DNA of 32,000 bases. Origin: Candidatus Lokiarchaeum ossiferum. Lineage in GTDB: Archaea; Asgardarchaeota; Lokiarchaeia; Sigyniarchaeales; Promethearchaeaceae. Below are positions 9,250 through 31,558 of this stretch, piece by piece. The DNA lies in NCBI GenBank assembly GCA_025839675.1, contig CP104013.1, positions 3,510,001 to 3,542,000 on the forward strand. The letters run 5' to 3'. The translations under genes and the position numbers were made by a program. The notes under the pieces were generated by a model. The model had not been told where the DNA came from. It worked only from the letters and a program-made list of their open reading frames with translations, and searched no databases. Positions within the stretch are counted from its first letter, which is position 1; every line of letters starts with the position of its first letter.

Positions 9250-10389
9250 ATGAATCTCTTTCAAAGAGCTAAAGAAACACTTGCCGAAATTGGTGCAGAT
9301 GCATGGTTGATTTCCTGCGTGGAAGGAAATGACATTCATTCCAAATTCATTTTGAATGTTAATATTCACATAAGACATTACATCTTCATTTCACAAAAAG
9401 GAAAGGATGTTGTAATCACTTGTCCAATGGAAAAACCCATGGCAGAAAAAGCATTAAAGCGACTGGGTGTGGATGCTGAAGTTAAAGACTTCACAAGAGC
9501 AGCAGATATTCCAGTTATGCTAAAGGATTTAATAAAGGATCAGACTGTGGCCTTAAATTTCGGAGAAAATATTTTTACTCCACAAACTACTGCTTATGCC
9601 GAATTTCTTCCTGTTGGAGAATTACGAGAATTACAAAAAATCGCCCCTAAAGCTAAGTTTATATCAGCCGCCAAAATTATCTATGCTCTCCGAAGTATCA
9701 AATCTCCTTCTGATATTAAGGATTTAGAAGAAGCCGCCAAGATTAATATCGAAATTTTAGAAGATATTCCCAATTGGGTCAAGCTTGGTATGACCGAAAA
9801 TGATGTGAAGCGAAAACTCGAATCTAAATATATGCAATATGGAGAGGTTGGTTTTCCTGCTATTATCGCAAATAATGCAAATGCTGCAGATCCTCATCAT
9901 GGAGGTTCTGACAAAAAAATCGAAAAAGGGGTTCTACTTATCGATTCCGGCATGAAAAAAGATCGAATGACAACCGATATTACCTGGACGTATTGGATTG
10001 GAGGAGAACCTACTGAAAAGTTTTTGGAAATTTATCATTTGATTTATGATGCAAAGCAAGCCTCATTTAAAACTATTAAACCTGGTGTTAAAGCTAATAT
10101 ACCCGACCAAATAATTCGTAAAATGTTTGCGGATCAAGGGATCGATCATATGAAACATTACAACCATGGGTTGGGTCATCCTCTAGGTTATGTGGTGCAT
10201 GATATTGGAATTGGGCTAAGTGCACGAATGCCTGATGAAGCCGTTTTAACAGAAGGTATGGTGATTACTCATGAACCGGGTCTTTATTGGCAGGGTGAAT
10301 GGGGTGTTCGGTTAGAAGATGATTTTGTTGTGACCAAGGATTCCATGAAACTGTTGACTTACTGCCCTAAGGATCCATTCCTTATTTAA
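9250..10389 (+). CDS. M24B-family Xaa-Pro aminopeptidase/dipeptidase
   Basis: Pita-bread-fold metal-ligand motifs: LLIDSGMKKDRMTTDITWTY, HGLGHPLGYVVHDIG, VITHEPGLY, GVRLEDDFVVT. The N-terminal creatinase-like domain is present. Confidence 0.85.
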   Translation: MNLFQRAKETLAEIGADAWLISCVEGNDIHSKFILNVNIHIRHYIFISQKGKDVVITCPMEKPMAEKALKRLGVDAEVKDFTRAADIPVMLKDLIKDQTVALNFGENIFTPQTTAYAEFLPVGELRELQKIAPKAKFISAAKIIYALRSIKSPSDIKDLEEAAKINIEILEDIPNWVKLGMTENDVKRKLESKYMQYGEVGFPAIIANNANAADPHHGGSDKKIEKGVLLIDSGMKKDRMTTDITWTYWIGGEPTEKFLEIYHLIYDAKQASFKTIKPGVKANIPDQIIRKMFADQGIDHMKHYNHGLGHPLGYVVHDIGIGLSARMPDEAVLTEGMVITHEPGLYWQGEWGVRLEDDFVVTKDSMKLLTYCPKDPFLI

Positions 10390-11206
10390 TCCTTTTTTTT
10401 CCCATTCTTCTACGTTTAGCGATACAGAGATACAAATTTTCCCTTCGGATGAGATTTCCTTCTGGAAATTCTGATTTTAAGCAAGATCGAACTTCATTTT
10501 CGAAGTTCTTTATCTCTTTACCGAATAACTCTTGATTAGCAAAGGATGTAGAAAATAATAATCCCATATATTCATTTATTGATTGAGTATAAGAACTAGG
10601 AATTGAATATTCTTTAAACTGGTTAAATTGAGATTCTGATAAATAGTCAGTAAAACTCTTCTGGTCTTGTGAATATAATTTTTCTTTCCCTGCTTTTCGT
10701 TTTTCCCCTAGATATCTCTGAATAATCCGTTTGATTTTAATATCAATAGGTTCTAAGGAATTCCAAAGTCCAGTAACACCTCCAATGCTTGAAAAAATTG
10801 CAATTCCCCCGCTAGGTTCTATCAATCTCTCAAGTTTTCCTAAAACCTTGGTTTTGTCCATCCAATGAAAACTAGATCCACAAATTGTTAATTGAAATAA
10901 TCCTAGGGATTCATCTATTTCTTCAGCTGCTGAATTGTGATATTTCATGTTTTTAATATCTAATTCAGCAAGTTTCTTTTTTCCTTCCGCCATCATTTCT
11001 GGATTAACTTCTACCGCAATTATTTCACGAAATAATTTAATATAAGGGATAGAAGATTGCCCTGATCCTGCCCCTAAATCTAATAATCGACCTGTTCCAT
11101 CTAATTGAAATTCGGATTTCAAAATATTAACTATTTTTCCATGACATTTATGCCGATATCGAGCGTAAAATGAAGCAGTCCCACCAAAAACAGATCTATA
11201 TGTCAT
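10382..11206 (-). CDS. class I SAM-dependent methyltransferase
   Basis: Motif I LLDLGAGSGQSS, post-I acidic strand IIAVEVNPEMM, and FQLTICGSSFHWMD (Methyltransf_11-like). The substrate cannot be assigned. Confidence 0.75.
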   Translation of the reverse strand: MTYRSVFGGTASFYARYRHKCHGKIVNILKSEFQLDGTGRLLDLGAGSGQSSIPYIKLFREIIAVEVNPEMMAEGKKKLAELDIKNMKYHNSAAEEIDESLGLFQLTICGSSFHWMDKTKVLGKLERLIEPSGGIAIFSSIGGVTGLWNSLEPIDIKIKRIIQRYLGEKRKAGKEKLYSQDQKSFTDYLSESQFNQFKEYSIPSSYTQSINEYMGLLFSTSFANQELFGKEIKNFENEVRSCLKSEFPEGNLIRRENLYLCIAKRRRMGKKRIK

Positions 11207-24771: not shown

Positions 24772-25968
24772 TCAAAATTTTTTCTTCCAAAATTTGTAGG
24801 CCCGTAAGTAGTCTTTCACTTGGATTACTTTGGGATTACGGCGAAAACTGCTTGGAATCGTCCCATCACAACGAGAACATAGACTAGAAGTGCGTACCCA
24901 ATTTTTGAATTCATCCACGTGGGCGGGATAATTACAATTTGGACAGAGAACAATCCCCCGATGCCCGTCAGAAGTACTCGGAAGTTCAAAACAGAATATA
25001 CACTTGAAATCATCGGGGGTTAACACTCCAGTCTTTGGTTTCATACGTAAAAGTTCTTTTTTGCTTACTGAGGAAGAAGAGGTGGTCCTAGAAACTTTTG
25101 GTTTAGAAGACGATTTGGACTTTGAACGTTGTAGGCGTTCTTGTTCCCTTTGTTGTTTTCTCCGGGCTTTCTCTTCCTGCTCACGACGACGAGATTGTTT
25201 TCTCTCCAAATCTCTTTGTCTTCTTCTCTGGTCACGCTTCTGTTGTTCTTGGGCTTGGGCTTTTTTCTCTCTCTGGCGAGCTGCATCGGCAAAACGATCT
25301 GCGTCCTCTATTTGACGATCGATATTGTTCAACCTATTAGAAACACCTCGCATTGAAAATCCTGAGATTCTGGGCCTACGTTTGGTGATCGCAAAGAGAA
25401 AATAGATTACTAATACACACAAATTCAGAAGAATTATCAAATTGATTCCAGAAGTTTCAGGCGCAATATTTTGAAACACGTTTCCTCCCAGAACAAGATA
25501 AATAAAATCAAAAGAAATGAGAATCAAACTTGTAATGATCATAAATGGACGAGCATCAATTGATTTGGTTCCAATGAAAACGGTAAAATATTTTGAAATG
25601 CAAAACGACAATAAGATCATACTAAAAAATAAATAGGGGACAGCAAGAATTAGAGTCCAAATATTGAAGGATACATTGATAGGCAGTACCACATCCTGCA
25701 AAATTGTTGTAAAATCTCCCCAAATCCCATAAAATGTTCCTACTAATAAACCCCCAAATATAATTACAAAATTATTCAGCGAAGCACTATATTCGCGGAC
25801 TCGTTTTATCTTGGAAACATATTCGAATAAAATACAAAGCCATAATCCAAGTAATATATGTGAAAAGAAACCATTCAAAGAATCACTTGGTGCATTTCCG
25901 GTAAAAACTGCAATGAGTAAGCTAACTACAAGAACTACAAAATATAAAATGATCTTTGAAACTTTCAT
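24772..25968 (-). CDS. polytopic membrane protein with charged linker and C-terminal RING-like zinc finger (candidate membrane E3 ligase)
   Basis: The N-terminal ~200 aa hold ~6 TM helices. A ~75-aa R/K/E/Q segment follows (RQREKKAQAQEQQKRDQRRRQRDLERKQSRRREQEEKARRKQQREQERLQR), then a Ser/Lys-rich spacer. The finger reads CIFC-x15-CPNC-x4-H-x2-E-x3-W-x7-CSRC. Confidence 0.7.
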   Translation of the reverse strand: MKVSKIILYFVVLVVSLLIAVFTGNAPSDSLNGFFSHILLGLWLCILFEYVSKIKRVREYSASLNNFVIIFGGLLVGTFYGIWGDFTTILQDVVLPINVSFNIWTLILAVPYLFFSMILLSFCISKYFTVFIGTKSIDARPFMIITSLILISFDFIYLVLGGNVFQNIAPETSGINLIILLNLCVLVIYFLFAITKRRPRISGFSMRGVSNRLNNIDRQIEDADRFADAARQREKKAQAQEQQKRDQRRRQRDLERKQSRRREQEEKARRKQQREQERLQRSKSKSSSKPKVSRTTSSSSVSKKELLRMKPKTGVLTPDDFKCIFCFELPSTSDGHRGIVLCPNCNYPAHVDEFKNWVRTSSLCSRCDGTIPSSFRRNPKVIQVKDYLRAYKFWKKKF

Positions 25969-26034: not shown

Positions 26035-26871
26035 TTATTCGTCATATTCCAAAAACAAATCTTGACCATCTACAATAGGATTAGCAAAATCCAACAGTTC
26101 GGGAAGGACATTTGGAGAGATATTTCCTTTGATTTTAAACGGAACTTCATACCACTTGGCAGTCTTTAAATTAGCACGGAAAATATTAAATCCATATGAA
26201 CTTCCATCAATTTGGTAAGGATCGATAACTAATGCTACCGATTTTTTCCATAATTTCTGATAACGAGCTTGAGTCCCCATATCCTCAGAGCTTAAAAATA
26301 GTCCATAGGATGGATGGGAGTGATACCATCCGCAAATAAAGAGGCCTTTTTTTTGCAAGTCGGTGTATGCTTTAACATAGTTGTTATAATCTTTAATTTC
26401 TGCATGAATGGCATTTCCATGCCCCATTGGGTAGACATCTTCAATATAAAGTACTTCATTGGGCTCATCCCACTTTCCCGCCAATAAACCAATAACTTCT
26501 ACCCATTTAGATCTTTCTATTTTGTCATTTGCATATTTTTTTGCATGAGTTGCAATTTTTAAAATGGCTTTTGCTGAAATTAGAGTTTTTTCTTCTTCTT
26601 TTACTGGTGCCATTTGGGAGCCAATTAACTTTTCACTATTCGCTTGGGCATTATTTTTCTTCACTATTTTTTTAAAACTTGTACTCAGAGTTTCATCGGA
26701 AAGCATTTCTTGTTCGCTAAATTTTTCCTCATTACTCTCTTCATTTTTGAGTTCCTGATAGATTTCTTGAAGAACTTCTTTTTTTATCTCGTTTTTTAAT
26801 TGCTTTAGCATTTCTGCTTTTAATTTTACTTTTAATTCCTTGATTTCAGGAGAATCGTTTTCATTTTCCAT
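26035..26871 (-). CDS. JAMM/MPN+ metalloisopeptidase (Rpn11/CSN5-like)
   Basis: Catalytic Glu in WVEVIGLLAG and the complete JAMM motif GWYHSHPSYGLFLSSEDM (HxHx7Sx2D). The catalytic core is preceded by a ~100-aa K/E-rich extension. Confidence 0.9.
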   Translation of the reverse strand: MENENDSPEIKELKVKLKAEMLKQLKNEIKKEVLQEIYQELKNEESNEEKFSEQEMLSDETLSTSFKKIVKKNNAQANSEKLIGSQMAPVKEEEKTLISAKAILKIATHAKKYANDKIERSKWVEVIGLLAGKWDEPNEVLYIEDVYPMGHGNAIHAEIKDYNNYVKAYTDLQKKGLFICGWYHSHPSYGLFLSSEDMGTQARYQKLWKKSVALVIDPYQIDGSSYGFNIFRANLKTAKWYEVPFKIKGNISPNVLPELLDFANPIVDGQDLFLEYDE

Positions 26872-26884
26872 AATAATTACCTGA

Positions 26885-27412
26885 TCACCATTTTTTGTTG
26901 GCGTATTTCTTGACTAAATTTTTGACTTTTTTATCAAATTTTTTCGGCTCTTTCATCATTTCCAGCGCTGCTTTTTTATTAAATACGTCTGTTGGATTAA
27001 TATACGATCCAGCAGTGTTCAACATTGCTGTAATTGCTTGAATCACTGTAACTGCCGTTTTTGAAGGACTCCAACCTCCCTTCTTTCCTATGTAGTTTGG
27101 ATCCACTAACGCTAAGCAAATATTTCGTTGTCCTACATATTCGGTAGGTTTGGGCCAAAAATTCGGATGCCATATTGGTGTGTGTAAACGAACGAATGGT
27201 GGTTGGCTTGGATACTCTGCTGGGAATTTCATCTCAAGCCTAAATAATCCCTTTGCATAGGCTGTTCCTTTTGGTCCTACTAACAGTATTTTCAAGTGAT
27301 CAATACTTTTTTTACTGGAATCAAAAGCTTTCAATTGTTTAATTGTCCCATCTTTGTACAATTTCTTTAATCTAGCGTAATCTTGTGTAATTCTTTTTTG
27401 TCTGAGACTCAT
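26885..27412 (-). CDS. UBC-fold ubiquitin-conjugating enzyme (E2)
   Basis: GPKGTAYAKGLFRLEMKFPAEYPSQPPFVRLHTPIWHPNF...RNICLALV...WSPSKT. The HPN triad is at residues 82-84. The active-site Cys99 codon is at 27116-27118, with WSP downstream. Confidence 0.9.
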   Translation of the reverse strand: MSLRQKRITQDYARLKKLYKDGTIKQLKAFDSSKKSIDHLKILLVGPKGTAYAKGLFRLEMKFPAEYPSQPPFVRLHTPIWHPNFWPKPTEYVGQRNICLALVDPNYIGKKGGWSPSKTAVTVIQAITAMLNTAGSYINPTDVFNKKAALEMMKEPKKFDKKVKNLVKKYANKKW

Positions 27413-27503: not shown

Positions 27504-28742
27504 CTATTTAAATAACCGTATAGTGACATATATTTCCCCTTCTTGAAACCCAGAAAGAGTAATTAAAGACAGTGACCGTATTTTGTTCTCCTTAGCATTT
27601 TTTTCTAAATCCAACTCTCTTAGTGAATCAAAATCTGGTACCGTCAAAATAGGTTCCATCTCTTCATCTAGATGATATCCCTTCATCTTCAAGGCATTTA
27701 TGATACATTCTAGGTTTTGGTCCTTTCGCAGATAGAATTCTTCACGCAACACATTTTTGCCACATTGAAAGCATTCGGGGTTTCGCGGCTTTTCTAAATG
27801 ATAAAATCGTTCAGTCATACCATTATAAATAATATATTCTTTGCTTGGAATTCCTAATGCCGTATTTCCCTTAAGATAGTTGAGAATTTTCAATATTTCT
27901 TGAGATTGAATGCTCGCAATTACTGCATTAATCGTAATAATACCTGGTTCATGGTGATCTATGATATTTATAACTTCTTTTACAGTAAAATCTGGTTTAA
28001 ATCCATATTTATCGACTAACTTATTCGCAAAGGATTTTAGGAATTTAATATCTTCATAATTTTGTGGATCTGGATCCTTTGCAAATTTCTCTTCATAGGC
28101 CATCGTTGCTTTGAAAAGACAATGAACTCGTTTACGGGGTATTCCAACAACAGTACAGGCGGCCATTTCATCACTTTCAGTCGACGATGTTGGATGGCAT
28201 TCATAACATGCGTTTTCAAAAGGAAAGATCGTATAAATATGACCATGATACCCATTAACTCCACCGTCTACCAAAGGTTTATTAAATCGAATTGCTTGTA
28301 GGTTTAAATTAACCCTCGCATTCATGGAATCTAATCCGCCTACAATGACATCTGCTTTCTTGAATAGAATAGGGGGCAAATTTTCAAGGGATGTATGGTA
28401 TCCTTTCAATGTAATATTAGGATTAATTTTTTGTAACATTTCCGCTGCGGCGATAGCTTTAGGCTTCGCTATATCTGCATTAATGAATAACATTTGGCGA
28501 TTTAAATTTGAATGCTCAATTACATCCAAATCAACTAGATCAATATGACCAACTCCAAGCATAGTAAGATTTTTTGCTATTTCACAACCGAGACCGCCTA
28601 CACCTGCAATCAAAACTCGAGCATTCTTCAATATTCGCTGATCCCAACCTTTTAACCGGAATTGTCTGTCATAAAGCTGGCGCTCTGATTCAGTAAGATC
28701 TTTAGAAAAGAAATTTGATTCTTCCAAAACATAATCCCTCAA
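27504..28742 (-). CDS. eukaryote-type ubiquitin-activating enzyme (E1, Uba-like) with catalytic-Cys segment and C-terminal ubiquitin-fold-like domain
   Basis: LYDRQFRL, IAGVGGLGCEIAKNL, DLDVIEHSNLNRQMLF, GGLDSMNAR, zinc pairs CYEC and CFQC, and an inserted segment with AACTVVGIP that resembles the PxCT catalytic-Cys motif of eukaryotic E1s. The ~70-aa C-terminal domain ends EGEIYVTIRLFK. No in-frame ATG exists near the 5' end, so the start must be TTG (28742 or 28727). Confidence 0.9.
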   Translation of the reverse strand: MRDYVLEESNFFSKDLTESERQLYDRQFRLKGWDQRILKNARVLIAGVGGLGCEIAKNLTMLGVGHIDLVDLDVIEHSNLNRQMLFINADIAKPKAIAAAEMLQKINPNITLKGYHTSLENLPPILFKKADVIVGGLDSMNARVNLNLQAIRFNKPLVDGGVNGYHGHIYTIFPFENACYECHPTSSTESDEMAACTVVGIPRKRVHCLFKATMAYEEKFAKDPDPQNYEDIKFLKSFANKLVDKYGFKPDFTVKEVINIIDHHEPGIITINAVIASIQSQEILKILNYLKGNTALGIPSKEYIIYNGMTERFYHLEKPRNPECFQCGKNVLREEFYLRKDQNLECIINALKMKGYHLDEEMEPILTVPDFDSLRELDLEKNAKENKIRSLSLITLSGFQEGEIYVTIRLFK

Positions 28743-28788: not shown

Positions 28789-29145
28789 TTATATTCCCGC
28801 AGTACTTGCGGGAATAAGTAAAACTGTATCTCCGTCCTTGACGGGATAATCCATTATGAATTTTCCTTCATCCATGGTAACTCCACCATGGGACAAGTGA
28901 AAATCGGATGGATTAACTCCAAATATATTTCCAACAGTTGTTTTAATATCTCCAACTTGATTTCCAGTGTTCACGAGTAATTTCTGCTTTTTCTCACCAG
29001 GACCAATTGTAGACATGAAGAAAACTGAAATATCTTTACCTCCTGGTGCTTGTGCCGCATTTGGTGTTTTTGAGGCAATAGCAGGGGTTTTATCTTCGAT
29101 ATCTTCATCCAAATCTTCATCTAAGTCATCAAAATCTTCTGACAT
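28789..29145 (-). CDS. ubiquitin-like beta-grasp protein with acidic N-terminal extension
   Basis: First gene of the E1/E2/JAMM cassette. The C-terminal ~80 aa (DISVFFMSTIG...KKQKLLVNTGNQVGDIKTTVGNIFGVNPSDFHLSHGGVTMDEGKFIMDYPVKDGDTVLLIPASTAGI) have the length and hydrophobic pattern of a beta-grasp Ubl and a Gly next to the C-terminus. The N-terminal ~40 aa are D/E-rich. The fold assignment is inferred, not demonstrated. Confidence 0.65.
   Translation of the reverse strand: MSEDFDDLDEDLDEDIEDKTPAIASKTPNAAQAPGGKDISVFFMSTIGPGEKKQKLLVNTGNQVGDIKTTVGNIFGVNPSDFHLSHGGVTMDEGKFIMDYPVKDGDTVLLIPASTAGI
28792..28816 (-). promoter_or_regulatory. perfect 10-bp stem, 5-nt loop hairpin over the last codons of the Ubl gene
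   Basis: tattcccgca-gtact-tgcgggaata. The GC-rich core stands out in an AT-rich context. It spans the codons for PASTAGI and ends one nt before the stop. Confidence 0.45.
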
Positions 29146-29324
29146 ATGTTTTCACTTTTTTTATTTACATTTCCTTTTTTCAGAGAAAAAAAGAAATTTG
29201 ATCCTTATCATCGTTTCCAGCTTTTTATGTGTTTAGTTTTTTCTAACCTTAACCGAACATAAATAAGGGAAGTTGGTGCAATTTATATAAGAGTAAGAAT
29301 AACTCAATCTCCAAAATTTATTTT

Positions 29325-30560
29325 GTGATCAAAGTGGTAAAGCAAAAAACTCCCGATTCTACTATTCGCGTGAAAACACCTGTTATTTCATCGAAAACTC
29401 CCTCGGATCTTGATTCAAATCAACTAAAATCTGAACGCAAAAAACTTGAAGCGGAACGTCAAAAACTAGAAGAAGAACGAAATCAATGGCAAAAAATACT
29501 TAACAAAATGCAACAATATTCCGATTCCCTTGATGAACTTGAACAAAAACGAAAAGACAAGATTGATGATATCAAAATTCTTGAGCGTGATCGGAAAAAT
29601 ATTGTTGAAGACATCGATCGTTTGAATAAATCATTCGATGAAGGAAAGAAACGACTTGACAATGTAATTTATGATCTTGAAGACAAAAATGGAGTTCTTA
29701 GACGTAAAGAACTAGAGTTGGAAGATCGAGAGAAAGATCTTGAAGATCGCCATCATCAGATTAAAAAAACCCGCATAAAAGTTCAGGATAAAATCAATGA
29801 CGCAAAAGAACAACTTGAAGATTTTGACTCGAAAAAAGATCGTCTTGATCGGGATGTCCAAAATCTTGAGCGTAAGAAACAAAATTTAATTGACGATCTC
29901 CAGAACGAAAAAGAACGTCTCAATAAAACAAATAGGGATCGAAAAGCACTAGAAAAAGAACGAAATCAATTGCAAAATGAAGTAGATCGCTTGAATCGTG
30001 AAAAAGATAGGATAAGGGATGAACGTAAGCGATTAAATCAAGAGAAAGATGATTTAAACAAAGTCCGTGATCGGATTCAAGATGAAAAAGATGCTTTAAG
30101 AAAGAAACGGAAGCAAGAAGAAGATCGTATGAACAAAATCCAACGAAATGCTGCTGATGATCTCAAAAAAACACAACAAAAACGAAAACAAGCAGAAAAT
30201 GAATGGAATAATTATCGTAAAAAAATTCCTGAAGCCGAACGGAAACTGCGTTCAATGGAGAAAAAGGTTGATGACGCTAAAGGAGATTGGAATCGTATCA
30301 AACGTGATAATGATCAATTGAAAAATGAAAATAAACACCTTCAAAATGATAATCGACGAATCAATGATGAAAAGAAACGTCTAAGAAAAGAACGAAATGA
30401 CATTGAAAATGAAAAGTCTAAAATCAAGCGATTGGAGAAAGACCTCGAGGGAAGGATGCGCAAAGTTCAAAATTTACAAAAAGATTTAGAGAATCAAATT
30501 CAAAAGGCGAAAATAAAATCTAAAACCCCTGGAATTCGGTCTAAAACTCCAGGTTGGTAA
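29325..30560 (+). CDS. long heptad coiled-coil protein with KTP-motif termini
   Basis: About 360 aa of nearly uninterrupted K/E/R/D/N/Q heptads (e.g. EVDRLNR-EKDRIRD-ERKRLNQ-EKDDLNK-VRDRIQD-EKDALRK). They are flanked by QKTP..VKTP..SKTP at the N-terminus and SKTPGIRSKTPGW at the C-terminus. The start is uncertain: GTG 29325 or GTG 29334, with no nearby ATG. Confidence 0.6.
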   Translation: MIKVVKQKTPDSTIRVKTPVISSKTPSDLDSNQLKSERKKLEAERQKLEEERNQWQKILNKMQQYSDSLDELEQKRKDKIDDIKILERDRKNIVEDIDRLNKSFDEGKKRLDNVIYDLEDKNGVLRRKELELEDREKDLEDRHHQIKKTRIKVQDKINDAKEQLEDFDSKKDRLDRDVQNLERKKQNLIDDLQNEKERLNKTNRDRKALEKERNQLQNEVDRLNREKDRIRDERKRLNQEKDDLNKVRDRIQDEKDALRKKRKQEEDRMNKIQRNAADDLKKTQQKRKQAENEWNNYRKKIPEAERKLRSMEKKVDDAKGDWNRIKRDNDQLKNENKHLQNDNRRINDEKKRLRKERNDIENEKSKIKRLEKDLEGRMRKVQNLQKDLENQIQKAKIKSKTPGIRSKTPGW

Positions 30561-30589: not shown

Positions 30590-31558
30590 TTAATCCAAAA
30601 AGAGATGGAACAGATCCTTAATAACATCCAAATGGGCTAAAAAGTCCCAATTCTTGAATAAAAAAGGTTTAATTTGCTCTTTAAACATTTGAGCCCAATC
30701 ATGGTCACCCAATGCTTTTGAAATAATCGTGATATAATGTTTTAGGGATGTATTGAACAAATCAATCATAATTTCTATGTCTACATCTTCAACCTTCATC
30801 TCAAATAATTTATTTCGATTTGCTTCCACAAAGATGATCTTTTCTTTTTTCATATCTACACGAGGGATAAAGATATGCAATATTTCAAAAGTTTTTTCGA
30901 ATCCTTCCTTTCTAGACCATGTTTCAAGAATTAACGGCAACTTCTTCAAATTTAGTAAAATATATTTTAGACGCATCCCACTAAATTTATTTTCTACTAT
31001 TCTAATGAGTTTAATAAAGAGATTTTGATAAATTCCCAGTAGATCAAACATCTCACCTAAATTTGTTGATTGATAGGCTCGCTTCCATTGAAAATGGATC
31101 TTTTCGATTCTGGTATGAAATCCATCGAATTGAGTTGTTTCCTTATCCCAGAAGTCCCAAAAAATACCTTTCACTTTGTATTCATTGATAAATACCCGAT
31201 CTAAGACTTTTAATTGGGAAAGAACTAAATGATAATGACTCGGTTGGTCCGTAGCGGCCACATATAACAAGTTTGCCTCAGAATTAATGTAATAAACCCA
31301 ACTTAAATTTCCCATGTTCACCGATTCAATACCTTGGTTTCCCATTTTCATCTCACTGAATTGATTTAGGGCTGATAGCAATCCGGAAATCATTATTCCG
31401 TCTAATTCGCCATCTTGGGAAAAATCATGGTAGAAAATGTTCAATGATGAGTTTTTCTCAATGATCCAGAAATGTTTGATTTGAAATGATTTGATCACTT
31501 TAACCTCATTTCTCAACTTTTTATCTGATTTTTGATGAAACGCCTCATCATATTCCAT
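30590..31558 (-). CDS. hypothetical protein; the N-terminal ~130 aa have a longin/roadblock-like alpha-beta pattern
   Basis: Apparent strand-strand-helix-strand-strand-strand-helix pattern: HFWIIEK / LNIFYHDF / DGIMISGLLSALNQFSEM / IESVNMGN / LSWVYYINSE / LLYVAATD / HLVLSQLKVLDRVFINEY. The C-terminal ~190 aa look helical. This is pattern recognition only. Confidence 0.4.
   Translation of the reverse strand: MEYDEAFHQKSDKKLRNEVKVIKSFQIKHFWIIEKNSSLNIFYHDFSQDGELDGIMISGLLSALNQFSEMKMGNQGIESVNMGNLSWVYYINSEANLLYVAATDQPSHYHLVLSQLKVLDRVFINEYKVKGIFWDFWDKETTQFDGFHTRIEKIHFQWKRAYQSTNLGEMFDLLGIYQNLFIKLIRIVENKFSGMRLKYILLNLKKLPLILETWSRKEGFEKTFEILHIFIPRVDMKKEKIIFVEANRNKLFEMKVEDVDIEIMIDLFNTSLKHYITIISKALGDHDWAQMFKEQIKPFLFKNWDFLAHLDVIKDLFHLFLD

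What the first reader, a model, noticed from the sequence alone, without database searches (positions are those of the whole stretch)
28789..29145. Ub-like protein has a 40-aa polyacidic N-terminal extension and ends in -TAGI instead of a Gly-Gly terminus
- **C-terminus:** the translation ends LLIPASTAGI*. Ubiquitin, SAMPs and Urm1 end in GG. A single Gly followed by a short pro-peptide resembles Atg8/UFM1-type precursors, which need proteolytic maturation. The cassette JAMM is the obvious candidate for that step.
- **N-terminus:** MSEDFDDLDEDLDEDIEDKTPAIASKTPNAAQAPGG is disordered-looking and strongly acidic. I know of no precedent for this among Ub-like modifiers. It would travel with the modifier onto its targets.
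- **Alternative:** the annotated ATG may be too far upstream. The next in-frame Met (FFMSTIG) lies inside the predicted first strand, which argues against a shorter product.
Basis: partly seen in the sequence, partly recalled or inferred. Interest (0 to 1): 0.65.

Follow-up and report, generated by a model that had tools for sequence, protein, structure and literature searches.

The report
Asgard ubiquitin-like tag with acidic leader
This gene encodes a ubiquitin-like protein tag from an Asgard archaeon that ends in Ala-Gly plus one disposable residue and carries a conserved acidic leader, features shared across Asgard archaea that I could not find described in the papers I searched.

Summary
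ORF 28789..29145 (-) encodes 118 aa in four parts:
- an 18-aa polyacidic stretch (12 D/E of 17, P≈3e-8);
- an 18-aa KTP/Ala-Pro linker;
- a confidently predicted beta-grasp domain whose best PDB match is Caldiarchaeum ubiquitin;
- the tail ASTAG followed by Ile.

It heads an operon of Ubl, E1, E2, an Rpn11-like JAMM protease and a membrane-anchored RING-like protein.

The protein is not an oddity. 727 homologues and 251 genomic loci were found, and every locus examined is from an Asgard archaeon. All keep an invariant Ala-Gly followed by 0-7 unconserved residues; about half have no tail. All keep the leader: [F/L]DE[D/E] repeats, one to three [S/T]KTP motifs, and a Gly before strand 1. Leader dN/dS is 0.02-0.29, so it is translated and constrained.

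Relatives include tandem poly-[leader-Ubl] ORFs whose units join exactly at ...STAG|. This supports cleavage after Gly and retention of the leader.

The KTP motif is about 60-fold enriched. It otherwise occurs at both ends of a coiled-coil protein that is always encoded divergently next to the Ubl.

I read this as a conjugatable modifier matured and deconjugated by the JAMM protease. The leader's function is inferred only. Verdict: new variant of a known kind.

The parts
28789..29145 (-). Ubl precursor ORF (118 aa)
   Evidence: ORF and translation. 727 homologues. Beta-grasp model. Foldseek top hit is Caldiarchaeum ubiquitin 6fno_D.
29092..29145 (-). Leader module 1: polyacidic stretch MSEDFDDLDEDLDEDIED (residues 1-18), one version of the family's [F/L]DE[D/E] repeats
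   Evidence: 12 D/E of 17, P=3e-8. Repeats are present in all homologues, 1-8 copies. D9, E10 and L12 are at least 90% conserved. pLDDT 52-53.
29062..29091 (-). Leader module 2: two KTP motifs (KTPAIASKTP, residues 19-28)
   Evidence: K26 and P28 invariant, T27 at least 90% conserved. KTP occurs at 6.9 per 1000 aa in Ubls against 0.12 in 566 other genes. The motif lysine sits a fixed 17 or 22 residues before the GPGE loop.
29038..29061 (-). Leader module 3: Ala/Pro linker ending in invariant Gly36 (NAAQAPGG)
   Evidence: G36 invariant. The residue before it varies (G/A/S/E/T).
28810..29037 (-). Beta-grasp core (residues 37-112), with the invariant STIGPGEKKQK loop between strands 1 and 2
   Evidence: AF2 secondary structure E38-45, E52-59, H64-75, E82-86, E107-112 with pLDDT about 90. 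Foldseek probability 1.0 and target-normalised TM 0.78-0.89 to CsUb, ubiquitin, ISG15 and NEDD8. Pfam PF00240 E=6.5e-5.
28795..28809 (-). C-terminal tail ASTAG (residues 113-117), with Gly117 the predicted activated residue
   Evidence: S114, A116 and G117 invariant; A113 and T115 at least 90% conserved. The tail is in the register of ubiquitin LRLRGG. Tandem precursors are joined right after this Gly.
28792..28794 (-). Ile118: one-residue C-terminal propeptide
   Evidence: Position not conserved. Tails are 0-7 residues; 53 of 120 homologues have none, and close relatives carry I/R/C/K/M.
27504..28742 (-). E1 (ThiF-family adenylating enzyme, 412 aa)
   Evidence: Pfam ThiF 1.2e-58. Best PDB matches are Uba1, SAE2 and UBA3. 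It lies next to the Ubl in about 60 loci.
26885..27412 (-). E2 (UBC fold, 175 aa; HPN at 82-84, Cys99)
   Evidence: Pfam UQ_con 4.6e-26. PDB matches to E2s. 175 aa in all but a few cut or short ORFs. Motif positions.
26035..26871 (-). Rpn11-like JAMM metalloprotease (278 aa) with a roughly 90-aa Lys/Glu-rich N-terminal extension
   Evidence: Pfam JAB 1.1e-14. Best PDB hit is CsRpn11 6fjv. E125 and H184-S-H...D197 are intact.
24772..25968 (-). Multi-pass membrane protein with a basic disordered linker and a C-terminal RING-like zinc finger (candidate E3)
   Evidence: Conserved FKCIFCF...CPxC...PAH...LCSRC pattern. Linker net charge +22 here, mean +19 in 28 orthologues. Syntenic in 49 loci. The RING fold was not verified structurally.
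29325..30560 (+). Divergently transcribed coiled-coil protein capped by KTP motifs (N-terminal 29346-29402: KTPDSTIRVKTPVISSKTP; C-terminal 30522-30551: KTPGIRSKTP)
   Evidence: Only coiled-coil-type family hits. Present next to the Ubl in about 60 loci across Asgard lineages. The motif PK[YH]xI[RK]xKTP sits at both termini, with Ile at -3 in 95-96%. 61 of 62 orthologues contain KTP.
29146..29324 (.). Divergent intergenic region between the Ubl and the coiled-coil gene
   Evidence: An A/T-rich TAAATAAAAAAAG element lies 13-25 nt upstream of the Ubl ATG. This is compatible with a short-leader or leaderless archaeal transcript; inference only.

Best explanation
The gene encodes the precursor of a conjugatable ubiquitin-like modifier. 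It belongs to a family found across Asgard archaea.

Proposed pathway:
1. The operon's Rpn11-like JAMM metalloprotease removes Ile118 and exposes Gly117 (inferred).
2. The canonical-type E1 adenylates Gly117 and passes it to the E2 (Cys99) (inferred).
3. The membrane-anchored RING-like protein directs transfer to substrate lysines (inferred).
4. The same JAMM protease reverses conjugation (inferred).

The family's functional terminus is Ala-Gly rather than Gly-Gly.

The 36-aa leader is part of the mature modifier and travels with it. It is a disordered arm with an acidic [F/L]DE[D/E] module and one or two [S/T]KTP motifs at a fixed distance from the fold.

Most likely use of the leader (inferred, not shown):
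- The invariant KTP lysine is a preferred acceptor or docking site, read by the same factor that reads the KTP caps of the adjacent coiled-coil protein. That would make the coiled-coil protein a dedicated substrate or scaffold and would allow chains to form through the leader, as in SUMO.
- The acidic module is attracted to the strongly basic linker of the membrane E3.
For: Fold:
- AF2 gives a beta-grasp with pLDDT about 90 for residues 38-112.
- Foldseek top hits are Caldiarchaeum ubiquitin 6fno_D and 6fj7, then ubiquitin, ISG15 and NEDD8.

Operon:
- ThiF E1, UQ_con E2 and JAB protease.
- The E1 best matches Uba1/SAE2/UBA3. The JAMM protease best matches CsRpn11 and has intact catalytic residues.
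- The order coiled-coil<>Ubl-E1-E2-JAMM-TM-RING is kept, wholly or as far as the contig reaches, in most of the 85 loci from many Asgard lineages.

Terminus:
- A116 and G117 are invariant, followed by 0-7 unconserved residues.
- More distant relatives keep ..IP-x-S-x-A-G.
- Tandem ORFs of two or three [leader-Ubl] units join exactly at STAG|. Their units are only 48-67% identical, so they are not assembly artefacts.

Precedent:
- CsRpn11 removes the propeptide of Caldiarchaeum pro-ubiquitin, and only the trimmed form is activated by E1 (PMC5654768).
- CsRpn11 still cleaves the penultimate G77A mutant, though slowly (PMC6043591).

Leader:
- It is conserved in all homologues, with dN/dS 0.02-0.29 while dS is near saturation, and is predicted disordered.
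- KTP occurs at 6.9 and 7.3 per 1000 aa in Ubls and coiled-coil proteins against 0.12 in 566 other genes.
- The E3 linker has net charge +8 to +27 in 28 orthologues, against -10 for this leader.
Against: - No biochemical evidence exists for this family: processing, activation and conjugation are all inferred.
- Sequence similarity to ubiquitin is faint. BLASTP finds nothing, and the Pfam PF00240 score of 23.1 is below the 25.4 cut-off.
- In Caldiarchaeum a penultimate Ala slows Rpn11 cleavage, so this JAMM and E1 must have adapted to Ala-Gly.
- AF2 shows no confident docking of the leader onto the fold.
- None of the three possible roles of KTP (acceptor, enzyme dock, reader-binding motif) could be distinguished, because no multimer prediction was available.
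- The E3's RING fold was not verified.
Confidence: 0.72

Rival explanations
1. The leader is an N-terminal propeptide. It is cut off at the invariant Gly36 (x-G|K, which resembles the C-terminal A-G|x), so the mature modifier is a leaderless protein of about 81 aa. The acidic/KTP peptide would act only before maturation, for example as an inhibitor or chaperone, or be released as a separate peptide.
For: G36 is invariant, and the residue before it is often A or G ('SAG|KK', 'PGG|KD'), echoing the C-terminal 'TAG|'.
Against: - Rpn11-type JAMM proteases position the scissile bond by binding a folded Ubl upstream of it (PMC6043591). No fold precedes Gly36.
- The leader's motifs are under purifying selection as strong as the core's in close relatives.
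- The KTP-Ubl module is kept intact in fusion proteins.
- An invariant Gly just before strand 1 can be structural.
Confidence: 0.1
2. The protein is not conjugated. It is a ubiquitin-like domain adaptor whose leader motifs and fold mediate non-covalent interactions only, and the operon enzymes act on another substrate.
For: Related proteins carry the same domain at the end of larger proteins with Zn-ribbon or roadblock-like domains. A 264-aa membrane protein with a related domain lacks the AG terminus.
Against: - The fusion proteins that keep the KTP module nearly all end in ..S-T-A-G at or within 6 residues of the C-terminus.
- The Ala-Gly terminus is invariant and the gene sits directly upstream of E1-E2 in about 60 loci.
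- Tandem precursors make sense only if units are released by cleavage.
Confidence: 0.06
3. It is a MoaD/ThiS-type sulfur carrier, as some database entries name its homologues ('molybdopterin converting factor small subunit').
For: JGI names several homologues this way. The E1 also scores against MoeB/ThiF models.
Against: - The terminus is not Gly-Gly.
- An E2, a RING-like protein and an Rpn11-like protease are in the operon.
- The E1 aligns best and longest with Uba1/SAE2/UBA3.
- No MoaE, ThiG or other cofactor genes are adjacent.
- The structure is closest to ubiquitin proper.
Confidence: 0.03
4. The start codon is mis-called. The real product starts further downstream and lacks the leader.
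For: None beyond the general risk of start-codon errors in automated annotation.
Against: - The leader is conserved at the amino-acid level across Asgard classes, with synonymous changes dominating (14.8 synonymous against 3.2 non-synonymous differences to L007).
- The only in-frame Met (M44) lies inside strand 1.
- Internal units of tandem ORFs carry the leader.
Confidence: 0.02

Closest known systems
Caldiarchaeum subterraneum ubiquitin system (CsUb, E1, E2, srfp RING, CsRpn11)
   Same: Best structural match of the Ubl and best sequence match of the JAMM protease. Operonic Ub-E1-E2-RING plus an Rpn11-like protease. The precursor has a C-terminal propeptide that Rpn11 removes before E1 activation (PMC5654768, PMC6043591).
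   Different: - CsUb ends Gly-Gly plus 9 aa and has no N-terminal leader. This protein ends Ala-Gly plus 1 aa and has a 36-aa acidic/KTP leader.
- The E3 here is a 398-aa multi-pass membrane protein with a basic linker, not a small soluble RING finger.
- A KTP-capped coiled-coil gene is always adjacent.
Gly-Gly-type Asgard pro-ubiquitin encoded with ESCRT genes (Helarchaeia; bioRxiv 10.1101/2023.07.25.550441) and the Asgard ubiquitins of Hatano et al. 2022 (PMC9192718)
   Same: Asgard ubiquitin-like modifiers with their own E1, E2 and RING E3. A short C-terminal propeptide (SPKN) lies beyond the activated Gly.
   Different: The published protein is described with a conserved di-glycine, and no leader is mentioned. 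The family studied here has an invariant Ala-Gly and a conserved leader and sits in a different operon. It also occurs in Helarchaeota (L005), so it may be a second system there; the Gly-Gly sequence itself was not compared.
SUMO (eukaryotic)
   Same: A beta-grasp modifier with a disordered N-terminal tail that stays on the mature protein. In SUMO-2/3 the tail holds a consensus lysine used for chain formation (general knowledge). Here an invariant Lys in a fixed motif lies 10-15 residues before strand 1.
   Different: SUMO ends Gly-Gly, its tail is shorter and not polyacidic, its consensus is psi-K-x-E read by Ubc9, and its proteases are cysteine proteases. No test here shows that the KTP lysine is an acceptor.
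Atg8 / UFM1 single-glycine precursors
   Same: One C-terminal Gly preceded by a non-Gly residue and followed by a short propeptide that must be removed.
   Different: Those systems use non-canonical E1s (Atg7, Uba5) and cysteine proteases (Atg4, UfSP). Here the E1 is of the canonical type and the protease is a JAMM metalloprotease. The fold is closer to ubiquitin.
Eukaryotic polyubiquitin genes
   Same: Relatives of this protein are encoded as head-to-tail repeats ending in a 2-residue cap (P0121: 3 units + VL; P0122: 2 units + IY). The window gene is a single unit plus a one-residue cap.
   Different: Units are divergent (48-67% identity) rather than identical, and each carries its own leader. 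They are known only from short metagenomic contigs.

Membership tests
Ubiquitin-like beta-grasp modifiers (conjugatable Ubls) | Beta-grasp (ubiquitin) fold | tested here: met
   AF2 gives the beta-beta-alpha-beta-beta-(3-10)-beta order with pLDDT about 90. Foldseek probability 1.0, TM (target) 0.78-0.89, to CsUb, ubiquitin, ISG15 and NEDD8.
Ubiquitin-like beta-grasp modifiers (conjugatable Ubls) | Passes the Pfam PF00240 gathering threshold | tested here: not met
   23.1 bits against a cut-off of 25.4 (E=6.5e-5) for the window protein. Many homologues carry a precomputed PF00240 hit.
Ubiquitin-like beta-grasp modifiers (conjugatable Ubls) | Flexible C-terminal tail ending in, or processed to, a Gly | tested here: met
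   G117 is invariant, with 0-7 unconserved residues after it. Tandem units join after this Gly.
Ubiquitin-like beta-grasp modifiers (conjugatable Ubls) | Di-glycine terminus | tested here: not met
   A116 is invariant across 69 aligned sequences and in distant relatives.
Ubiquitin-like beta-grasp modifiers (conjugatable Ubls) | Covalent attachment to target lysines through E1 and E2 | not testable with these tools
   Only genetic linkage to E1 and E2 is shown.
Caldiarchaeum/Asgard-type archaeal ubiquitin operon | Ub, E1, E2, RING-type E3 and Rpn11-like JAMM protease encoded together | tested here: met
   The RING assignment rests on the Cys/His pattern only.
Caldiarchaeum/Asgard-type archaeal ubiquitin operon | Small soluble RING finger protein (srfp) as the E3 | tested here: not met
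   The candidate E3 is 398 aa with several hydrophobic segments and a 125-aa basic linker.
Atg8/UFM1-type single-Gly Ubls | Non-canonical E1 (Atg7/Uba5) and cysteine-protease maturation | tested here: not met
   The E1 matches Uba1/SAE2/UBA3 at 1e-35 to 1e-38 against Uba5 at 1e-15. The operon's protease is a JAMM metalloprotease.
MoaD/ThiS/SAMP sulfur-carrier-type Ubls | Gly-Gly terminus, E1 only (no E2 or E3), linkage to cofactor or thiolation genes | tested here: not met
   Ala-Gly terminus. E2 and a RING-like protein are present. No MoaE or ThiG neighbours.
SUMO-like modifiers with a chain-forming tail lysine | The tail lysine is used as a conjugation acceptor | not testable with these tools
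   Only the invariance of K26 within [S/T]KTP and its fixed spacing to the fold are shown.

The most novel reading that the evidence does not exclude
The [S/T]KTP motif is a consensus site read directly by this system's E2/E3 (or by its reader). The modifier would then polymerise through the lysine in its own leader. The divergently encoded coiled-coil protein, capped at both ends with the same motif, would be the system's dedicated substrate or scaffold at the membrane. That would be consensus-driven, SUMO-like conjugation in Asgard archaea, carried out by a ubiquitin-type modifier that ends in Ala-Gly and in some lineages is encoded as a polyubiquitin-like tandem precursor.
Probability: 0.25. 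Interest if true: 0.8.

Novelty: new variant of a known kind. Interest (0 to 1): 0.6.

Why it matters
Asgard archaea are the closest known relatives of eukaryotes, and their ubiquitin operons are used to reconstruct how ubiquitin signalling began.

If the widespread operon-encoded modifier ends in Ala-Gly and always carries a structured-by-motif leader, several consequences follow:
- Experiments that assume a Gly-Gly end, or that trim the N-terminus, would misfire.
- The di-glycine rule is not ancestral to all E1-E2-E3 systems.
- The KTP-capped coiled-coil neighbour offers a concrete candidate for a natural substrate or partner, which I did not find named for this operon in the papers I read.
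- Tandem precursors suggest that polyubiquitin-style gene organisation may not be confined to eukaryotes.

All of these points can be tested directly with recombinant proteins and with proteomics of cultured Asgard strains.

Tried and rejected
- BLASTP of the protein against human ubiquitin gave no alignment. The homology claim therefore rests on profile and structure evidence.
- NCBIfam has no model for the Ubl, the E3 or the E2. The coiled-coil protein matches only SMC/Rad50-type coiled-coil models far below their cut-offs.
- The PDB 'putative ubiquitin' entries 8hm1-3, first suspected to be Asgard proteins, are Bacteroides fragilis ubiquitin.
- Five literature searches and six papers read in part found no description of the Ala-Gly terminus, the acidic leader, the KTP motif or tandem precursors in Asgard Ubls. 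Absence from this library is not proof of novelty.
- Orphan copies of the Ubl away from the operon (L042, L050, L061, L066, L069, L070) have unrelated neighbours and gave no clue. The one other protein with two KTP tripeptides (L070, 497 aa) sits among unrelated genes and is probably chance.
- The sigma-70 promoter and terminator scan is uninformative for an archaeon.
- Not attempted: structural verification of the RING finger, and multimer prediction of the leader with E1, E2, E3 or JAMM (no tool for it).

Full report
**1. What is in the sequence**

The ORF 28789..29145 on the minus strand encodes 118 aa ending LLIPASTAGI*. The same protein is found on five contigs from independent assemblies. 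One of them is a 6.27-Mb complete genome (GCA_041410205.1, CP163304.1), from which the window derives.

The protein has four parts (coordinates verified):
- Residues 1-18, MSEDFDDLDEDLDEDIED. This stretch has 12 D/E of 17, P=3e-8 against the window's 12% D+E.
- Residues 19-36, KTPAIASKTPNAAQAPGG.
- Residues 37-112, the folded core.
- The tail ASTAG followed by Ile118.

The 'extension' is therefore about 36 aa, and only its first half is polyacidic.

**2. Fold and operon**

AlphaFold2 with a 69-sequence alignment predicts a beta-grasp: E38-45, E52-59, H64-75, E82-86, E107-112. pLDDT is about 90 for the core and 52-57 for residues 1-30.

Foldseek against the PDB puts Caldiarchaeum subterraneum ubiquitin first (6fno_D, 6fj7), followed by ubiquitin, ISG15 and NEDD8.

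Sequence similarity to ubiquitin is faint:
- Pfam PF00240 scores 23.1 bits against a cut-off of 25.4.
- BLASTP finds nothing.
- phmmer aligns Ile111 with Ub Val70, which puts PASTAG in the register of LRLRGG and leaves Ile118 as a one-residue extension.

Downstream on the same strand lie four genes:
- A ThiF-family E1, best matched by Uba1, SAE2 and UBA3.
- A 175-aa UBC-fold E2 with HPN and Cys99.
- A JAMM protease whose best PDB hit is the Caldiarchaeum Rpn11 homologue and whose E...HSHP...D motif is intact.
- A multi-pass membrane protein with a C-terminal RING-like Cys/His pattern.

**3. The protein belongs to a large Asgard family**

A search of 5.8 billion proteins gave 727 homologues of 112-130 aa. 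They are named, where named at all, from Promethearchaeota, Hel-, Hod- and Lokiarchaeota and Harpocratesius.

A scan of one genome per prokaryotic species found 251 loci. The best 80 are all from Asgard lineages: Loki/Promethearchaeia, Hel, Hod, Hermod, Odin, Thor, Sif and Sigyn. Two are labelled as bacterial MAGs and are probably mis-binned.

The gene order is kept, wholly or as far as the contig reaches, in most of the 85 loci: coiled-coil gene (divergent) <> Ubl - E1 - E2 - JAMM - TM-RING. In many lineages a second Ubl copy, a 264-aa membrane protein with a Ubl-like end and an HTH gene are inserted.

**4. The C-terminus**

- In the 69-sequence alignment L109, L110, I111, P112, S114, A116 and G117 are invariant.
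- What follows the Gly is not conserved. Among 120 homologues, 53 have nothing, 42 have one residue, 19 have two and 6 have three. Tails reach 7 residues in the loci.
- Close relatives of the window protein carry I, R, C, K or M.
- An exhaustive phmmer search with the core alone found more distant Asgard relatives (36-76% identity). All end ..[LI]IP-x-S-x-A-G plus 0-6 residues.
- Among them are ORFs made of two or three complete [leader-Ubl] units joined exactly at ...STAG|ADD[F]ED... and ending in a two-residue cap (P0121, P0122). They occur on contigs from three data sets.
- The units of these tandem ORFs are only 48-67% identical at the protein level and 63-66% at the DNA level, so they are not repeat-assembly artefacts.

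Together this is the signature of a modifier whose functional end is the Gly of Ala-Gly and whose extra residues are removed. The precedent is experimental. The Caldiarchaeum pro-ubiquitin (GG + 9 aa) is cut by its Rpn11 homologue, and only then activated by E1 (PMC5654768). The same enzyme still cleaves G78A and, slowly, the penultimate G77A mutant (PMC6043591).

About half of the family needs no trimming yet keeps the JAMM gene. Deconjugation is therefore probably the protease's main job.

**5. The leader**

Every family member has the same three modules:
- One to eight [F/L]DE[D/E] repeats. These are expanded in the paralogue next to the coiled-coil gene.
- One to three [S/T]KTP motifs.
- A Gly two residues before strand 1.

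K26, P28 and G36 are invariant. D9, E10, L12 and T27 are at least 90% conserved.

Codon comparisons with relatives give leader dN/dS of 0.02-0.29 with synonymous sites near saturation. For the closest relatives this is comparable to the core.

The leader is also present in the internal units of the tandem ORFs and in fusion proteins. It is therefore translated, constrained and most simply part of the mature modifier. The alternative start at Met44 would begin inside strand 1.

**6. The KTP motif links the Ubl to its neighbour**

- In the window, KTP preceded by S/A/V/R/K occurs only in the Ubl and in the divergently transcribed coiled-coil protein at 29325..30560. That protein has three copies at its N-terminus and two at its C-terminus.
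- Across 85 loci, KTP occurs at 6.9 per 1000 aa in Ubls and 7.3 in the coiled-coil proteins, against 0.12 in 566 other genes.
- The coiled-coil orthologues carry PK[YH]xI[RK]xKTP at both termini, with Ile at -3 in 95-96%.
- In the Ubl, the motif lysine lies a fixed 17 or 22 residues before the GPGE loop.
- The membrane E3 has a linker of about 100-130 aa that is Ser/Thr-rich and carries net charge +8 to +27 (mean +19) in 28 orthologues. This is opposite in sign to the leader (-10 here).

**7. Mechanism**

Shown:
- the fold prediction;
- the operon content;
- the family-wide invariance of Ala-Gly and of the leader motifs;
- the tandem precursors;
- the motif sharing with the coiled-coil protein.

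Inferred:
- The JAMM protease removes Ile118.
- E1 activates Gly117, and transfer runs through the E2 to the membrane-anchored RING-like E3.
- The JAMM protease also reverses conjugation.
- The leader stays on the modifier.

For the leader's role, the reading I favour has two parts. The KTP lysine is an acceptor or docking element shared with the coiled-coil protein, analogous to the consensus lysine in SUMO's tail. The acidic repeats pair electrostatically with the E3's basic linker. AF2 gives no confident intramolecular docking of the leader, which argues weakly against an autoinhibitory fold-back.

Rivals, in order of likelihood: leader removal at Gly36, a non-conjugated adaptor, a sulfur carrier, and a mis-called start. 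Their evidence is listed in the Rival explanations section.

**8. Comparison with what is known, and novelty**

The system is a member of the Caldiarchaeum/Asgard type of archaeal ubiquitin operon. It differs in four ways:
- an Ala-Gly terminus;
- the leader;
- a membrane-anchored E3;
- the KTP-capped coiled-coil partner.

It is distinct from the Gly-Gly pro-ubiquitin (GG+SPKN) characterised from a Helarchaeia ESCRT cluster (bioRxiv 10.1101/2023.07.25.550441).

The papers available to me describe Asgard ubiquitin operons in general (PMC9192718, PMC5654768, PMC6043591, PMC11354881). None mentions these features. Database names for the family are generic ('ubiquitin-like domain-containing protein') or wrong ('molybdopterin converting factor small subunit').

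I therefore rate it a new variant of a known kind. It is of real interest to people working on the origin of ubiquitin signalling, and every functional step still needs experiment.

Noticed in passing
window 29325-30560 (+); also L005:6677-7780, L006:6648-7784 and about 60 other loci: A coiled-coil protein of 280-500 aa is always encoded divergently next to the Ubl. It carries the motif PK[YH]xI[RK]xKTP at both its N- and C-termini. No family model describes it.
   Followed up: partly
L086:205-957, L087:59-1177, L088:59-1177 (proteins P0122, P0121): Tandem 'poly-Ubl' ORFs of two or three divergent [acidic leader-KTP-beta-grasp-STAG] units plus a two-residue cap, reminiscent of polyubiquitin genes. 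They are on short metagenomic contigs, and their subfamily resembles a Hodarchaeales protein (P0146).
   Followed up: partly
proteins P0129-P0133, P0135, P0136, P0138, P0142, P0145, P0161, P0163, P0188: The KTP-Ubl module, nearly always ending in ..STAG, is fused to the C-terminus of larger Asgard proteins. These include a Zn-ribbon family ('YNCPKCK...RYPFPY'), a roadblock/LC7-like protein and proteins of about 565 aa. Whole proteins might therefore be conjugated through their Ubl end.
   Followed up: no
L006:8429-9223 (-), 9309-9980 (-), 10255-10587 (+), and the same arrangement in about 35 loci: In Hod-, Hermod-, Thor- and Odin-labelled genomes the operon holds two Ubl paralogues: a long-leader copy next to the coiled-coil gene and a short-leader copy next to E1. 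Between them lie a 264-aa membrane protein with a Ubl-like C-terminal domain that does not end in Ala-Gly, and a winged-helix gene.
   Followed up: partly
window 24772-25968 (-): The candidate E3 has several hydrophobic segments and then a 125-aa Arg/Lys/Ser-rich linker of net charge +22 before the zinc finger. The positive charge is conserved in 28 orthologues (mean +19), complementary to the acidic Ubl leader.
   Followed up: partly
window 26035-26871 (-), residues 1-90: The JAMM protease carries a roughly 90-aa Lys/Glu-rich N-terminal extension, probably helical, which is absent from the crystallised Caldiarchaeum Rpn11 core.
   Followed up: no
window 26885-27412 (-), residues 82-99: The E2 has 14 residues between the HPN motif and the catalytic Cys99. 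From memory, typical E2s such as UbcH5 have about seven. E2 length is 175 aa in all but a few cut or short ORFs.
   Followed up: no
L039 (DATKTW010000117.1) and L057 (DATKTP010000227.1): Two contigs carrying the Asgard-type locus belong to MAGs labelled as bacteria (Nanopelagicaceae, Deferrimicrobium): the full operon on L057, and the coiled-coil gene with two Ubl genes on L039. They are probably mis-binned Asgard contigs.
   Followed up: no
window 30590-31558 (-): A 322-aa protein next to the coiled-coil gene has no family match. In the loci examined it has homologues only in the same genome's own copies (L001, L002).
   Followed up: no
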